A stretch of DNA of 64,000 nucleotides from Escherichia coli (GCF_044324875.1 NZ_CP172185.1); one strand, 5' to 3'. Positions 58,701 through 64,000 are shown, counted from the stretch's first letter. Program-made: the numbers.

Positions 58701-61700
58701 TGTTGTCGGTATTGTTCAGTACTGTGCGTTGTGAGCGTATTCGTTATCAGACAGAGGGGCAGGGAACAAACGTCAGAGGTTAAGGATATCCGGGAACAAA
58801 TGGCGTAAACGGACATCTCAGTGCCTGAGAAACAGTACAGGTCAGGCCATCATGGCCTGCAAACAGAGCCCTGGCGACCCCGTGGCCGAAAACGAAACAA
58901 TAACCCGCGCGCAGTGCGAGGAATCCGGATGTGAAGCAATCAGCAGGTAATATTAATGGCAGGACCAGCAGGTTCTTTAAACAAACGAACATGCTGTAAT
59001 TGATATTTTGCTTATTGTATTTTCTTTTTAGTTATTAAATTAATTTATTTACGAAAAATTTTCTGCAGATACAGGATGGGAATTCAGGGTGTCATCACGC
59101 CTTATGATGACACCCTTCCCCTGGTTGTGGAAAACCGAAGGATATATCAGGTTCAGCAACAAAATCAGTGAGCTGAAAGATACCAGTCCCCCAGCTTCAG
59201 CAGCTTTCACGTAAACATAAACAGGGCTCAATGAATATCTGATTGCTCCAGTTACCTTCTTTAATTCGTTCCAGCAAAACATTTCCTGCTTCCAGACCAA
59301 TTTTCCTGTGAGGAACGGCCATTGTTGTTAATGATGGTTGGCAAACTTTGCTGACGTCACTGTCACCAAATCCTACTACGGCGAGCTCGTCTGGAACTTT
59401 GATCCGTCTTCGTTGACATTCATAGAGAACACCGCAGGCTAACTCATCTGACACACATACCAGGGCATCCAGTTCCGGCCATGCGAGCAAAAATTCCGGT
59501 AGTTGTGATGCTCCGGTGGAAAAAACAGGTGGCAGAGCAGCGTTAATAACACGGTTGGGAGACATATGATGGCGTAACATAGCTTTATACCATCCCTGTA
59601 AATGCTGCTGAAAGATCCACTGTTCCTGGTTAGCGCATAGCAAACCGATATTCTGATAACCACGTTGTACCAGCATATCCGTCAGCTCGAACATTGCTGC
59701 AACATTATCAATACCAATGTTGATATCTATCGGATCAGTACGAATGGCACCGATTTCTATAACAGGAATCGAGGCATTTTTGAGCAAGTGACGCACGGTA
59801 CTATTATGCTCAACACTAAGCAAAATTGCTGCAGCGATATTAGAAGCCAGCAGGGTTTCCAGCAGTTTTTCTTCTTGTTCCAGACGATGGCGTGACTCAG
59901 CCAGGATTATTTGATACCCCGCTGGTTGTAGCACATGTTGCAGCCCGGCAAACATTTCCGTGCATCCCGCTTCAGCCAGGTTTGGCACGACCATTGCGAT
60001 CGTGTGTGAAGATGCCGATGCCAGTGCGCTTGCAGTGAGGTTGGGCATATACCCTAATTCATTAACTGCGGCTTCAATCTTCTCCCTCAATTTATCTGAA
60101 ACTTGTTCGGGAGTGCGTAACGCTCTGGATACAGTCATTGTGCCAACTCCCGCGAGTTGCGCGACATCAGCAATAGTGACTTTACCTGTACTACGACGTT
60201 TTCGGGTTATTGCCATACAAAATCCTGCTCAGCGACTACATATGGAGATCTTTTATTACTTATCATCAACGGCTTCCTGCACTGCCAGTAGCAGAGTATA
60301 CCTCTTAATATCTGCCATAAGTCTGGATTTAATCAGTGAAATCTATTTTGATAGCGCTATCACAAATTCGAACAATACCTCCTGATAGCGCTATCTTTGT
60401 GATATTGATCGCAGATATACCGTCGTTACTTGAATACATTCTGGTCATATAAATAAGAAATTAGGGGGTGGGAGTGCTTAATATCTGGCTTTCTGATTCA
60501 ACAATCGCATTACGAAAGAATGCCGCAACCTGGCAGCAGGCATTAGATATCTGTGCCAGACCGTTACTGGATGCAGAGATAATTACGACGGATTATCTCA
60601 GTGCGATAAAGACACAACATGAAAAACTGGGGCCTTATTATGTCCTGGCACCCGGGCTGGCCATGCCGCATGCCCGACCAGAAGAAGGGGCAAAAGGATT
60701 AGGTTTATCATTATTAAAACTTGAAGAAGGTGTCAGTTTTCATACAGAGGAATTTGATCCTGTAGATGTTATCATTTTACTTGCCGCACCAGACAAACAC
60801 AGTCATATCGAAATGATATCTGCACTGGCTGAGTTATTCTCCAGCGAAAAAGATTTACATGAATTGCATCAGGCTCGCAATGTGGAGGAAATAAAAAAGA
60901 TAATTTCACGGTTCTGATTACATTATAAATTCAGTCTTTTCACAACATTGCGCCGTTGCGTGATGGGACTTCTTCAACTTAAAATGGTGAATATAATGAA
61001 AATTATGGCTATTTGTGGCTCAGGGCTTGGTAGTAGTTTTATGGTCGAAATGAATATTAAAAAAGTTCTGAAAAAAATGGATATAGAGGCGGAAGTGGAA
61101 CATTCCGATCTCTCATCAGCAACGCCAGGGGCTGCCGATTTATTTGTGATGGCCAAAGATATTGCTGCCAGTGCCAGCGTACCGGAAAGTCAGTTGGTGG
61201 TTATCAACAACATCATTGATATTAATGAACTCGAAACGCAACTGCGTAACTGGTTAGCAAAACAATAACCTTAATTGAAGCGAGGTGGATATGTTTATCC
61301 TTGAAACGCTGAATTTTGTTGTTGATATACTTAAAGTGCCCGCGATACTGGTCGGCTTGATTGCCTTAATTGGTCTGGTTGCCCAGAAAAAATCTTTTTC
61401 AGATGTTGTTAAAGGTACAATTAAAACTATTCTCGGCTTTATTGTACTGGGCGGTGGTGCCACTGTTTTGGTTGGTTCGTTAAATCCTCTTGGGAGTATG
61501 TTTGAACATGCCTTTAATATTCAGGGCATCATTCCGAATAATGAGGCTATTGTTTCTATTGCGCTGGAAAAATATGGCGCATCGACGGCCCTTATTATGG
61601 CATTTGGTATGGTGGCGAATATTATTGTTGCCCGCTTTACCCGCCTTAAATATATCTTCCTGACCGGACACCACACATTTTACATGGCCTGCATGATTGG

Positions 61701-64000
61701 TGTGATTCTGACAGTGGCTGGTTTTGAAGGTATATCACTGGTCTTTACCGGTTCTCTTATTCTGGGACTTGTGATGGCATTTTTCCCGGCATTAGCACAA
61801 CGCTATATGAAGCGTATTACGGGGAATGATGACATTGCTTTTGGTCACTTTGGCACTCTGGGATATGTACTTTCTGGCTGGATTGGCAGCGTGTGCGGTA
61901 AAGGTTCCCGCTCCACCGAAGAGATGAATTTGCCCAAAAATCTGAGCTTCCTGCGCGACAGTTCCATCTCTATTTCTCTTACGATGATGGTGATTTATCT
62001 GATCATGGCGATCAGTGCTGGTCGTGAGTTCGTTGAAAGCCAGTTCAGTGGTGGTCAAAACTACCTTGTCTACGCCATCATAATGGCCATCACCTTCGCT
62101 GCTGGTGTATTTATTATTCTGCAAGGCGTGCGTTTAATCCTTGCTGAAATAGTTCCGGCATTTACCGGGTTTTCAGAAAAGCTGGTGCCGAATGCCCGTC
62201 CGGCCCTCGATTGCCCGGTTGTGTATCCGTATGCGCCAAACGCAGTGTTAGTTGGTTTCTTGTTTAGCTTTTTTGGCGGTCTGGTAGGGCTATTTTTGTT
62301 GGGACAGATGAAACTGGTGTTGATTCTTCCGGGTGTCGTTCCTCACTTTTTTACCGGGGCGGCTGCTGGCGTATTTGGTAACGCTACGGGGGGACGTCGT
62401 GGCGCAATGATTGGTGCTTTTGCGAATGGCTTATTGATTACCTTCCTGCCAGTACTGTTATTGCCGGTTCTTGGGGCGATAGGCTTTGCTAATACGACCT
62501 TTTCCGATGCAGATTTTGGTGCTGTCGGCATCGTCCTCGGAAACCTGGCACGTTATCTCTCACCTTTTGCCATCACCGGACTTGTAGTAGCGCTATTTGT
62601 GCTGCTGGTTGCCTGGAACATTTTCGCCAGTAACAAAATCGCTGCCAAAGCGCAGAAGAAGAGCGGAGCCAAATCATGAATGTTAAAGAATTGACTCAAT
62701 TTGCACGGGATATACGTATCCAGACGCTTAAATCATTAACTCATCTCGGCTTCGGTCATTATGGTGGCAGCATGTCGGTTGTGGAAACGCTGGCAGTGCT
62801 TTATGGCGCTGTAATGAAAATTGATCCTGCTGCTCCCGACTGGCCTGAGCGTGACTATTTTATCCTGTCCAAAGGACATGCCGGACCTGCTCTCTACAGT
62901 ACTCTGGCGCTGAAAGGCTACTTTCCACTGGAAGAATTAAGCACCTTAAATCAGAACGGAACCCGCTTACCAAGTCATCCGGATCGGCTAAAAACGTGTG
63001 GTGTTGATAGCACCACAGGATCGCTGGGGCAGGGGATATCCATTGCCGGAGGGATGGCGCTGTCGCATAAACTGGCGGGGCGCAAGAATCGGGTTTTTTG
63101 TATTGTCGGCGATGGCGAACTTAATGAAGGCCAATGTTGGGAAGCTTTCCAGTTTATCGCGCATCATCGTTTGAATAACCTCACTGTGTTTGTGGACTGG
63201 AACAAACAGCAGCTTGATGGTCAACTGGATGAAATTATTAATCCATTTGATTTGGAAGGAAAATTCCGGGCTTTCGGTTTTGATGTCGTGACAGTGAAGG
63301 GCGATGATATTGAGGGCTTGTTGAATGTAGTTAAACCTGTCCTGCCAGCTGAGGCCAGACCGAGAGTGGTCATTCTCGATAGCATTAAAGGGCAGGGGGT
63401 GCCGTGTCTCGAGCAACTCAGTAATTCTCATCACTTACGCCTCACAGAAGAGATGAAGGGGACGCTAAACGAAACAATTCGCCAACTGGAGGATATGCAT
63501 GATTAATCTCGCACCGGCAGGACAAAAAGACAGCATTGAAATGCGCAAAGTTTATGCAGATTTTATCGCGCAACAGAGTAAAAACGTCAGTTCTGTCATT
63601 GCTCTTGAGGCTGATTTAATGAGTTCCATGGCAATGGACAGCGTGGCGCAGGATTATCCAGATCACGTCATTAATTGCGGCATTATGGAAGCCAATGTTA
63701 TCGGCACAGCTGCAGGGCTGGCCTTAACCGGGCGCAAGCCATTCGTGCATACCTTTACCGCATTTGCCAGTCGTCGCTGTTTTGATCAACTCTTTATGTC
63801 GCTTGATTACCAGGGCGCTAACGTCAAAGTTATAGCTTCTGATGCGGGTGTTGCTGCTTGCCACAATGGCGGAACACATATGTCATTTGAAGATATGGGA
63901 ATTGTGCGCGGGCTGGCGCATTCGGTGGTGATGGAGATGACAGATGCCGTAATGTTCAGCGATATCTTGCGTCAACTCGTTGCACTGGAAGGATTTTATT

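What the first reader, a model, noticed from the sequence alone, without database searches (positions are those of the whole stretch)
60468..64000. Accessory PTS EIIABC (ascorbate family) with a split transketolase: candidate ketose/pentose-derivative catabolic cargo
An ascorbate-family PTS coupled to a two-subunit transketolase under a LacI-type repressor suggests uptake and phosphorylation of an unidentified sugar or sugar acid feeding the pentose-phosphate pathway. The module lies within or next to the island and the substrate is unknown.
Basis: inference. Interest (0 to 1): 0.4.

Follow-up and report, generated by a model that had tools for sequence, protein, structure and literature searches.

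The report
Island-borne orphan sugar PTS with transketolase
This is a real, intact six-gene sugar-uptake operon (repressor, three-part PTS transporter, two-piece transketolase) carried on a genomic island in about 2% of E. coli; close copies are already known in Salmonella and streptococci, and its sugar, which is probably not vitamin C, is still unidentified.

Summary
Window 59197-64000 holds a divergent LacI-family regulator, then EIIA, EIIB, an L-ascorbate-family EIIC and a split transketolase (TktN, then TktC cut off by the window end).

Downstream, in a 100%-identical genome over window 59000-64000, tktC ends and IS elements follow. There are no further catabolic genes.

The cassette is accessory in E. 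coli. It is intact in 132 of 5426 complete genomes, and about 234 more keep only a 285-bp tktC remnant. Here it sits in a kps-capsule/CP4-like island.

It is the island-borne counterpart of a chromosomal locus next to pta-ackA in Salmonella (tag STM2340-45/TktC from memory), E. albertii and Serratia. It is also homologous to the streptococcal ula2 operon.

New here:
- Two invariant operators (TGATAGCGCTATC) and a CRP-like site lie in the promoter region.
- Five of the ten mapped ascorbate-contact residues of UlaA are replaced by the same residues in 17 of 19 other transketolase-linked EIICs from several bacterial orders; the other two differ at one contact position each.

This points to one conserved substrate that is not ascorbate. 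A ketose such as xylulose or ribulose has been proposed before for the pneumococcal homologue but never validated.

Verdict: an ordinary, known kind of module with an orphan substrate, of modest interest.

The parts
59197..60216 (-). LacI-family transcriptional regulator (339 aa), divergent from the operon. Closest named models are GntR/IdnR-type, all below their cutoffs.
   Evidence: 95% identical to the E. albertii protein and 88% to the Salmonella protein.
60349..60362 (.). Operator O1, perfect palindrome TGATAGCGCTATCA
   Evidence: Invariant in the E. coli/Salmonella/Serratia alignment A1. The core GATAGCGCTATC occurs only twice in the 64-kb window, against 0.08 expected.
60383..60396 (.). 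Operator O2, TGATAGCGCTATCT, 34 bp centre-to-centre from O1
60398..60413 (.). CRP-like site TGTGAtattgaTCGCA, directly next to O2. It is TGTGA-N6-TCGCA in Salmonella and TGTGC-N6-TCACA in Serratia.
   Evidence: Sequence reading. The function is inferred from the known CRP consensus.
60435..60440 (+). Putative -10 hexamer TACATT (TAAAGT in Salmonella and Serratia). This would place the CRP site near -41.5, a class II arrangement.
   Evidence: Inference from the conserved block. The consensus scan did not pick it.
60474..60917 (+). PTS EIIA (147 aa, PTS_EIIA_2) with the phospho-histidine motif AMPH66ARPE. The start is a GTG preceded by AGGGGG.
   Evidence: The start matches RefSeq and the Salmonella ATG.
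60996..61268 (+). PTS EIIB (90 aa, PF02302) with the active-site cysteine in MKIMAIC7GSGLGSS
61291..62679 (+). PTS EIIC (462 aa) of the L-Asc/SgaT family. The UlaA pivot residues are kept, but the binding pocket is remodelled (N84, E85, H128, Y131, F187).
62676..63506 (+). Transketolase N-terminal (PP-domain) subunit, 276 aa. Its start overlaps the EIIC stop by 4 nt.
63499..64000 (+). Transketolase C-terminal (Pyr + TKC domain) subunit. The first 167 of 317 codons are in the window, and the gene overlaps tktN by 8 nt. It would end at the equivalent of window position 64452.

Best explanation
**What it is (shown).** A self-contained, horizontally acquired sugar-utilisation operon. The LacI-family repressor gene lies divergent from a five-gene unit: EIIA, EIIB, EIIC, TktN and TktC.

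**Regulation (sites shown, function inferred).** The intergenic region carries two conserved palindromic operators and an adjacent CRP-like site. The likely logic is repression until an effector appears, plus cAMP-CRP activation.

**Uptake (inferred from family membership).** The phosphoryl group passes from PEP through the host's EI and HPr to EIIA His66, then to EIIB Cys7, then onto a sugar held in the elevator-type EIIC.

**Substrate (shown to differ from ascorbate's pocket; identity inferred).** The EIIC keeps UlaA's mechanistic residues but has a different pocket. That pocket is identical in 17 of 19 other transketolase-linked relatives and differs at one contact position in the other two. 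So the substrate is one conserved compound other than L-ascorbate. Most likely it is a neutral ketose, such as a ketopentose (D-xylulose or D-ribulose) or a related tetrulose or heptulose. Its phosphate ester would already be a pentose-phosphate-pathway intermediate.

**Catabolism (inferred).** No other enzyme is ever conserved in the cassette. The co-translated two-subunit transketolase would therefore be the only dedicated catabolic step, passing the carbon to fructose-6-P and glyceraldehyde-3-P.

**Origin (shown).** The E. coli copy is an island-borne version of a locus that sits next to pta-ackA in Salmonella, E. albertii and Serratia.
For: - **Domains and intact ORFs:**
- **Operators and CRP-like site:** invariant across three genera, with only two operator-core matches in the window against 0.08 expected.
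- **Translational coupling:** 4-nt and 8-nt gene overlaps in E. coli, Salmonella and Serratia.
- **Conserved synteny:** the order EII(A)B-EIIC-TktN-TktC, with no other conserved enzyme, holds in all 22 PTS-linked loci sampled from Enterobacterales, Vibrio, Listeria, Streptococcus, Paenibacillus, Clostridia and Sneathia.
- **EIIC pocket:** G58, G286 and R288 of UlaA are kept. Of ten mapped ascorbate contacts (contacts listed in PMC6048161), four are kept, one is a conservative Ile-to-Val change and five are replaced. Seventeen of 19 other EIICs at 57-97% identity carry the identical set; two differ at one contact position each.
- **Transketolase residues:** the ThDP, metal and catalytic residues H26, H66, H100, D155, N185, H261, R358, S385, E411 and H473 (E. 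coli TktA numbering) are all conserved.
- **Salmonella orthologue:** 87% identical over the concatenated subunits. It is cited as a third transketolase, TktC.
- **Published hypothesis:** a ketopentose substrate was proposed for the pneumococcal homologue SP2129-30 (PMC3302838).
- **Accessory status and island context:**
Against: - No substrate has been shown for any member. Pneumococcus did not ferment xylulose or pentoses in the only test reported.
- The streptococcal homologue ula2 is induced 2-3 fold by ascorbate (PMC4324149). This keeps an ascorbate-related substrate alive.
- The regulator's nearest named relatives sense sugar acids (GntR, IdnR), which does not favour a neutral ketose.
- Free ketopentoses are scarce in nature.
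- There is no expression evidence for the E. coli copy.
- In E. coli, the deleted form of the cassette is more common than the intact form.
- The promoter -10 assignment is inference only.
Confidence: 0.55

Rival explanations
1. It is a second L-ascorbate PTS, or a PTS for a close analogue such as dehydroascorbate or erythorbate. Its product would be processed by the core Ula enzymes (UlaG, D, E, F) encoded elsewhere. The operon's transketolase would only drain the resulting xylulose-5-P.
For: - NCBIfam names the EIIC model 'PTS ascorbate transporter subunit IIC' and the protein passes its cutoff.
- The EIIC is homologous to UlaA at E 4e-51.
- The streptococcal ula2 homologue is induced 2-3 fold by ascorbate through UlaR2.
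- A pneumococcal mutant of the main ascorbate PTS keeps some growth on ascorbate.
- The pneumococcal ula operon itself carries a transketolase gene.
Against: - Five of ten mapped ascorbate-contact residues are replaced, including Tyr87, Gln139 and Gln195; PMC6048161 states that mutating the active-site binding residues cripples or abrogates binding. The replacements are the same in all 19 other transketolase-linked EIICs compared.
- No ula-type enzyme is ever found in the cassette.
- Ascorbate induction of ula2 is weak, against more than 200-fold changes seen in a potABCD mutant.
- The family name is an annotation, not a tested function.
Confidence: 0.2
2. The transketolase is mainly a back-up or stress isoenzyme of the pentose phosphate pathway. 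The linked PTS would be incidental or regulatory rather than part of a transport-plus-catabolism pair.
For: - Salmonella TktC is described as a third transketolase contributing to the pathway, regulated like tktB by RpoS (citing Shaw et al. 2018).
- The Ser/Asn variant of the transketolase C-subunit motif is shared with a large clade of split transketolases. Many of these lie next to rpiB, pgk or gap-like genes with no PTS.
Against: - Gene order is strictly conserved and the EIIC-TktN-TktC genes overlap in E. coli, Salmonella and Serratia; tktN-tktC also overlap in Streptococcus.
- A dedicated sugar-type repressor with a CRP site points to substrate-induced catabolism.
Confidence: 0.12
3. In E. 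coli the cassette is decaying, functionally irrelevant island cargo on its way to loss.
For: - Of 366 genomes with any trace, only 132 keep the cassette. About 234 have just the same 285-bp 3' remnant of tktC, which lies next to IS1 in PK8275.
- One genome has an ISVsa5 insertion inside the cassette (H4).
- IS1414 and IS3 lie immediately downstream.
Against: - All ORFs in the window are full length.
- The 132 intact copies are at least 99% identical.
- Operators, ribosome-binding site and active-site residues are intact.
Confidence: 0.1

Closest known systems
Salmonella Typhimurium STM2340-STM2345 locus (TktC split transketolase; Shaw et al. 2018, J Biol Chem 293:11271; cited in PMC12651746 and PMC8360588). 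The paper is not held here, so the locus tags and kinetic details are from my memory.
   Same: The six genes, their order and their lengths are the same. Protein identities are 73-94%: EIIC 92%, TktN 89%, TktC 86%, LacI 88%. The operators and the CRP-like site are identical.
   Different: - In Salmonella the locus is chromosomal, between yfcC-pta-ackA and yfcD. In E. coli it sits in a kps/CP4-like island flanked by IS elements.
- Nucleotide identity is only 76%, and GC3 is much lower in the E. coli copy (0.36-0.46 against 0.54-0.66).
- The Salmonella copy is therefore not the direct donor.
Escherichia albertii cassette at the ackA-pta-yfcC / yfcD locus (L019)
   Same: This is the closest relative found: 85.7% nucleotide identity over the whole 5.26 kb, and proteins 88-97% identical.
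   Different: It sits at the chromosomal pta-yfcC position, as in Salmonella, not on an island. The divergence is too large for it to be the immediate source.
Streptococcal ula2 operon (ulaR2-ulaB2-ulaA2-tktN-tktC; SP_2127-2131; PMC4324149, PMC3302838)
   Same: The EIIB-EIIC-TktN-TktC order is the same. Identities are EIIC 59%, TktN 55% and TktC 44%. The EIIC pocket residues are identical. The substrate is likewise unproven.
   Different: The regulator is a roughly 680-aa PRD-type activator that carries the EIIA domain, in place of a LacI-type repressor with a separate EIIA.
E. coli UlaABC L-ascorbate PTS (structures 4RP8/4RP9; PMC6048161)
   Same: The transporter family and fold are the same. 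The pivot glycines, Arg288, His135, His194, Asp314 and Phe362 are kept.
   Different: - Sequence similarity to UlaA is low (phmmer E 4e-51 over residues 13-398).
- Five of ten mapped ascorbate contacts are replaced.
- There are no UlaG/D/E/F genes; a transketolase takes their place.
Split-gene transketolase of Carboxydothermus hydrogenoformans (6YAK/6YAJ; PMC7661550)
   Same: It is the best structural relative of both subunits (E 3e-64 and 1e-70). The alpha2-beta2 architecture is implied.
   Different: The C. hydrogenoformans enzyme keeps the canonical His461 and Asp469 equivalents. The cassette enzyme has Ser and Asn there.
tkt1 genomic island of ExPEC/APEC (PMC3349570)
   Same: It is another accessory E. 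coli island pairing a transketolase-like gene with a PTS component.
   Different: It is unrelated. It has a full-length transketolase, a glucose-type IIBC and a metE-ysgA location, and it is found mainly in phylogroup B2.

Membership tests
PTS L-ascorbate (L-Asc, TC 4.A.7) family enzyme II complex | EIIC of the SgaT/UlaA type (Pfam PF03611) with the elevator pivots Gly58 and Gly286 and with Arg288 | tested here: met
   PF03611 at E 4e-153. UlaA hit at E 4e-51. G56, G279 and R281 align to the pivots and the arginine.
PTS L-ascorbate (L-Asc, TC 4.A.7) family enzyme II complex | Separate EIIB (PF02302) with an active cysteine, and EIIA (PF00359) with an active histidine | tested here: met
   Cys7 lies in AICGSG and His66 in AMPHARPE, read.
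Ascorbate-specific transporter (UlaA orthologue) | The vitamin C contact residues Thr86, Tyr87, His135, Ile136, Gln139, His194, Gln195, Asp314, Ile358 and Phe362 | tested here: not met
   The residues here are N, E, H, H, Y, H, F, D, V, F. Five of ten are changed, and those five replacements recur in all 19 other transketolase-linked EIICs compared.
Ascorbate utilisation (ula) regulon | Linked lactonase UlaG, decarboxylase UlaD and epimerases UlaE and UlaF | tested here: not met
   No such genes in the cassette in E. coli, Salmonella, Serratia or any of the 22 PTS-linked loci.
Split-gene transketolase (EC 2.2.1.1 type) | Two ORFs: a PP domain, then Pyr plus TKC domains. ThDP/metal motif and catalytic His and Glu residues present. 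| tested here: met
   PF00456 on the N-subunit, PF02779 and PF02780 on the C-subunit. H28, H68, H101, D146, N176 and H252 on N; R16, S43, E64 and H127 on C.
Split-gene transketolase (EC 2.2.1.1 type) | Canonical substrate-channel residues His461 and Asp469 (E. coli TktA numbering) | tested here: not met
   Ser114C and Asn123C take their places. The same variant occurs across a large split-transketolase clade that is mostly not PTS-linked, so it does not mark a special function.
Split-gene transketolase (EC 2.2.1.1 type) | Measured ketol-transfer activity | not testable with these tools
   Activity of the 87%-identical Salmonella TktC is reported in Shaw et al. 2018 (cited). The paper is not held here.
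LacI/GalR family repressor | N-terminal LacI HTH domain, a periplasmic-binding-protein-like effector domain, and a palindromic operator at the target promoter | tested here: met
   PF00356 with PF13377 and PF00532. Two conserved palindromes TGATAGCGCTATC(A/T). Binding itself was not tested.
GntR/IdnR gluconate-type LacI regulators | Score above the NCBIfam equivalog cutoff | tested here: not met
   Best hit NF052440 scores 270 bits against a 400-bit cutoff; IdnR scores 225 against 500.
Streptococcal ula2-type operon | EIIB-EIIC-TktN-TktC synteny with orthologous proteins | tested here: met
Streptococcal ula2-type operon | PRD-containing activator UlaR2 carrying the EIIA domain | tested here: not met
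   The Enterobacterales have a LacI-type regulator and a free-standing EIIA instead.

The most novel reading that the evidence does not exclude
The PTS plus split-transketolase unit is a distinct, phylum-spanning two-step pathway for one specific, still unidentified host- or plant-derived sugar. L-ascorbate is excluded; candidates are a free ketopentose, a tetrulose such as the ascorbate breakdown product L-erythrulose, or a heptulose. In this reading transketolase is the only committed catabolic enzyme. The common database label 'PTS ascorbate transporter' for this whole orthologous group would then be wrong.
Probability: 0.4. Interest if true: 0.45.

Novelty: new member of a known kind. Interest (0 to 1): 0.3.

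Why it matters
The module is widespread: Salmonella, Serratia, Enterobacter, Vibrio, Listeria, streptococci and Sneathia all carry it. It is tightly regulated, yet no one has shown what it imports.

Three results here narrow the problem for an experimenter:
- The binding pocket is conserved across several bacterial orders and differs from that of UlaA.
- No further enzyme is ever linked to the cassette.
- A clear operator/CRP architecture exists, so a reporter fusion or a repressor-ligand screen could identify the sugar quickly.

For E. coli, the patchy presence is a small case study of gain and loss of metabolic cargo on a capsule-associated island. About 2.4% of genomes have the cassette intact, more have it deleted, and many listed carriers come from poultry.

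None of this changes current understanding of PTS or transketolase biology.

Tried and rejected
1. **A specialised transketolase, inferred from active-site changes.** I found His461 to Ser and Asp469 to Asn and suspected a non-canonical substrate.
   - A genome-collection scan for that motif returned 120 loci, of which only 22 were PTS-linked.
   - The rest lay next to genes such as rpiB, pgk, gap-like, malic-enzyme and inositol-catabolism genes.
   - The variant is therefore a general trait of a large split-transketolase clade and says nothing specific. Rejected.
2. **Salmonella as donor of the E. coli copy.** Rejected: 76% nucleotide identity and very different GC3. E. albertii is closer at 85.7% but also not the source.
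3. **Identity with the known tkt1 island of ExPEC.** Rejected: different genes and a different location.
4. **The 'PTS xylose transporter' preprint (LgGatC).** It concerns the galactitol family, with about 12% identity to UlaA, and is not relevant.
5. **Literature searches for a defined substrate or for the Salmonella gene tags.** Only incidental mentions were found. The key paper, Shaw et al. 2018, is not held.
6. **Terminator and promoter scans.** The consensus scan was no better than shuffled sequence and gave no terminator after tktC.
7. **tRNA search.** No tRNA gene in the window, so the island's integration site is not visible here.
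Full report

Yes. The ORF list and profile scans show six genes.

| Window coordinates | Strand | Gene product | Evidence |
|---|---|---|---|
| 59197-60216 | - | LacI-family regulator, 339 aa | LacI HTH plus periplasmic-binding-like domains |
| 60474-60917 | + | EIIA | PTS_EIIA_2 |
| 60996-61268 | + | EIIB | PF02302 |
| 61291-62679 | + | EIIC, 462 aa | PF03611, E 4e-153; NCBIfam NF009549 989 bits, cutoff 890 |
| 62676-63506 | + | Transketolase N-subunit | PF00456 |
| 63499 to window end | + | Transketolase C-subunit, first 167 codons | No stop in the window |

The complete 317-aa C-subunit, with Transket_pyr and Transketolase_C domains, is seen in a genome that is 100% identical over window 59000-64000 (L001). 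The phospho-acceptor motifs are present: His66 of EIIA in AMPHARPE and Cys7 of EIIB in AICGSG. EIIC/tktN overlap by 4 nt and tktN/tktC by 8 nt. The same overlaps occur in Salmonella and Serratia.

**2. What lies downstream and around?**

In L001 the tktC stop is followed about 140 bp later by IS1414, then a frameshifted IS3 element, a transposase fragment and a YadA-like adhesin gene. The operon therefore has only five genes plus the regulator.

Upstream, the window holds three blocks:
- the glc/sslE/gsp region, present at 80% or greater coverage in 3198 of 5426 genomes;
- a low-GC kps capsule cluster;
- a CP4-like prophage remnant with cbtA/yeeU toxin-antitoxin, radC, antirestriction, Gp2-like, AlpA-like and ProQ/FinO-like genes.

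The cassette is thus inside a mosaic island. In strain ECCNB12-2 the same CP4-like-plus-cassette block lies next to setC/yicL instead.

**3. Distribution in E. coli**

The intact cassette occurs once per genome, always on the chromosome, in 132 of 5426 complete genomes. All copies are at least 99% identical. About 234 further genomes keep only the same 285-bp piece, made of the last roughly 180 bp of tktC plus downstream DNA. In strain PK8275 this remnant abuts an IS1 that replaces everything from about 200 bp beyond the lacI-type gene to within tktC. One genome has ISVsa5 inserted in the cassette (H4). In E. coli the cassette is therefore accessory and has been lost more often than kept. The copy in this window is intact.

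**4. Relatives and origin**

- **EIIC.** It is 92% identical to a Salmonella enterica protein cluster with 3426 members, and 84-89% identical to proteins of Serratia, Rahnella, Gibbsiella and others.
- **Salmonella and Serratia.** In Salmonella and in Serratia fonticola the same six genes, in the same order and with nearly the same lengths, lie beside pta-ackA. This is the position of the split transketolase TktC of Salmonella Typhimurium (Shaw et al. 2018). That paper is cited in PMC12651746 and PMC8360588 but is not held here, so the tag assignment STM2340-45 is from my memory.
- **E. albertii.** It also has the cassette between ackA-pta-yfcC and yfcD. It is the closest relative: 85.7% nucleotide identity over 5.26 kb, with proteins 88-97% identical.
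- **Boundaries.** Homology to Salmonella and E. albertii runs from the regulator's stop codon to (E. albertii) or to within about 25 bp of (Salmonella) the tktC stop codon.
- **Composition.** The island copy has much lower GC3 (0.36-0.46) than the Salmonella or Serratia copies (0.54-0.73).

My reading, which is inference, has three steps. The locus is old in the enterobacteria. It is missing from its pta-yfcC position in E. coli: no copy below 95% identity was found, and its absence between yfcC and yfcD in K-12 is from my memory. A diverged copy from an unidentified, lower-GC relative was later captured on an island.

**5. Deeper homology**

An exhaustive search with TktN found a 55%-identical protein as the best representative. 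That protein sits in a Streptococcus locus with a PRD-EIIA regulator, EIIB, EIIC-GAT, TktN and TktC. This gene composition matches the published ula2 operon (PMC4324149).

Twenty-two of those loci link the transketolase to an L-Asc EIIC. They come from Enterobacterales, Vibrio, Listeria, Streptococcus, Paenibacillus, Rossellomorea, Proteiniclasticum and Sneathia. In all 22 the order EII(A)B-EIIC-TktN-TktC is kept, and no other enzyme is conserved. The regulator is LacI-type in the Enterobacterales and a roughly 680-aa PRD/EIIA protein in Firmicutes and Sneathia.

**6. Regulation**

Aligning the intergenic regions of E. coli, Salmonella and Serratia shows several features.
- **Operators.** Two invariant palindromes are present: TGATAGCGCTATCA (60349-60362) and TGATAGCGCTATCT (60383-60396), 34 bp apart. 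The 12-nt core occurs only at these two places in the window, against 0.08 expected.
- **CRP-like site.** Directly after O2 lies TGTGAtattgaTCGCA (60398-60413). It matches the CRP consensus half-sites and is conserved in the other two genera.
- **Possible -10 element.** A conserved block about 30 bp further on contains TACATT (60435-60440). If this is the -10, the CRP site centres near -41.5. This step is inference.
- **Start codon.** A strong AGGGGG ribosome-binding site precedes the GTG start at 60474.

These features fit a substrate-induced, catabolite-controlled operon with auto-regulation of the divergent repressor gene.

**7. What does the transporter carry?**

The EIIC aligns with E. 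coli UlaA (4RP8) over residues 13-398. PMC6048161 lists the vitamin C contacts of UlaA, and I mapped them onto the alignment.

| UlaA residue | Role | Residue here |
|---|---|---|
| Gly58, Gly286 | elevator pivots | kept |
| Arg288 | contacts substrate O3 | kept |
| His135, His194, Asp314, Phe362 | ascorbate contacts | kept |
| Ile358 | ascorbate contact | Val |
| Thr86 | ascorbate contact | Asn |
| Tyr87 | ascorbate contact | Glu |
| Ile136 | ascorbate contact | His |
| Gln139 | ascorbate contact | Tyr |
| Gln195 | ascorbate contact | Phe |

The five replacements recur in all 19 other transketolase-linked EIICs compared, which are 57-97% identical overall. Seventeen of them match at every mapped position. 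The other two carry Ile instead of Val at the Ile358 position, and one of these also has Ser instead of Ala at Ser59. The proteins therefore form one orthologous group with a single conserved ligand. That ligand is unlikely to be L-ascorbate, whatever the database name says.

**8. The transketolase**

Both subunits are closest to the characterised split enzyme of C. hydrogenoformans (6YAK/6YAJ; PMC7661550). Against E. coli TktA, whose sequence I verified against 2R5N, all cofactor, metal and catalytic residues are conserved.

Two channel residues differ: His461 becomes Ser and Asp469 becomes Asn. I first took this as a sign of special substrate use. The genome scan showed the same variant in many split transketolases with no PTS nearby. 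Several of those lie next to genes such as rpiB, pgk, gap-like or inositol-catabolism genes. I withdraw that inference.

From memory, Shaw et al. 2018 reported Salmonella TktC active on canonical substrates with a lower Vmax than TktA and TktB.

**9. Mechanism proposed**

- **Shown:** gene content, intactness, coupling, operators, conserved synteny and the conserved non-ascorbate pocket.
- **Inferred from family knowledge:** PEP, EI, HPr, EIIA-His, EIIB-Cys and then the sugar bound in EIIC, with an alpha2-beta2 ThDP transketolase.
- **Inferred from context:** no other enzyme is ever linked, so the phosphorylated product should itself be a transketolase substrate or a pentose-phosphate intermediate. 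A ketopentose (xylulose or ribulose) was proposed on the same logic for pneumococcal SP2129-30, but could not be validated because pneumococcus did not ferment these sugars (PMC3302838). Tetruloses and heptuloses are equally compatible.

Three observations keep an ascorbate-related compound or a sugar acid possible:
- ula2 is induced 2-3 fold by ascorbate;
- ula2 changes more than 200-fold in a polyamine-transport mutant;
- the regulator's nearest named relatives are GntR and IdnR.

**10. Comparison with known systems and novelty**

The E. coli cassette is an additional, island-borne member of a module already described in Salmonella (TktC) and streptococci (ula2), and annotated routinely in RefSeq. 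It is not the tkt1 island of ExPEC, and it is not an Ula system.

What is new here is modest:
- the operator and CRP architecture;
- the pocket signature conserved across several bacterial orders, which argues against ascorbate;
- the gain-and-loss pattern in E. coli.

The substrate remains an open, easily testable question. Interest is 0.3, and the novelty class is 'new member of a known kind'.

Noticed in passing
L005 (E. coli PK8275) 37811-38738; equivalent to window ~58990 to beyond 64000: An IS1 element replaces the whole cassette and leaves only the last ~180 bp of tktC plus downstream DNA. The same 285-bp remnant is present in about 234 complete E. coli genomes, more than carry the intact cassette (132).
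   Followed up: partly
window ~30000-45000: A group 2-type kps capsule cluster lies between the gsp/sslE region and the CP4-like remnant. It has a very low-GC (0.30-0.36) serotype-specific region at ~30-38 kb and kpsFEDUCS-like genes at ~38-45 kb. The best complete-genome matches are only 92-98% identical, so this capsule and strain combination is not in the complete-genome set.
   Followed up: partly
window ~46000-58600: A CP4-like prophage or island remnant. It carries cbtA/yeeU toxin-antitoxin, radC, antirestriction, DUF932, GTPase, two Gp2/YagK-like genes, an AlpA-like gene (57013-57249) and a ProQ/FinO-family gene (58093-58395) immediately before the cassette. No tRNA gene is in the window.
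   Followed up: partly
L001 5158762-5193762 of NZ_CP033635.1: In strain ECCNB12-2 the same CP4-like-plus-cassette block lies next to setC/yicL rather than next to the kps cluster. It is followed by two IS1414 copies, a YadA-like adhesin gene and a sigma-like HTH gene. The block has therefore moved or recombined between island sites.
   Followed up: no
hit H4 (NZ_AP045773.1 360115-366453): One genome has an ISVsa5 (IS4-like) insertion splitting the cassette into two pieces.
   Followed up: no
L019 (Escherichia albertii NBRC 107761) 5310-10565: E. albertii carries the cassette at the ackA-pta-yfcC / yfcD position, as Salmonella does. This implies that the E. coli lineage lost the cassette from that site.
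   Followed up: partly
L009/L010 (metagenome contigs): A related split transketolase (46% identical) sits in a DeoR-regulator, DeoC-like aldolase, TktN, TktC unit beside an ABC sugar transporter. This is another uncharacterised context for this transketolase clade.
   Followed up: no
P0002, P0003 (Salmonella, 737 aa): Two database proteins are fusions of EIIC and the transketolase N-subunit. They probably arose by loss of the stop codon in the 4-nt overlap. This underlines how tightly the two genes are coupled.
   Followed up: no
Literature, PMC8540371 Table 2: The pneumococcal homologues SP_2127-2130 are up more than 200-fold in a potABCD (polyamine transport) mutant. This is far more than the 2-3 fold induction by ascorbate and is unexplained.
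   Followed up: no
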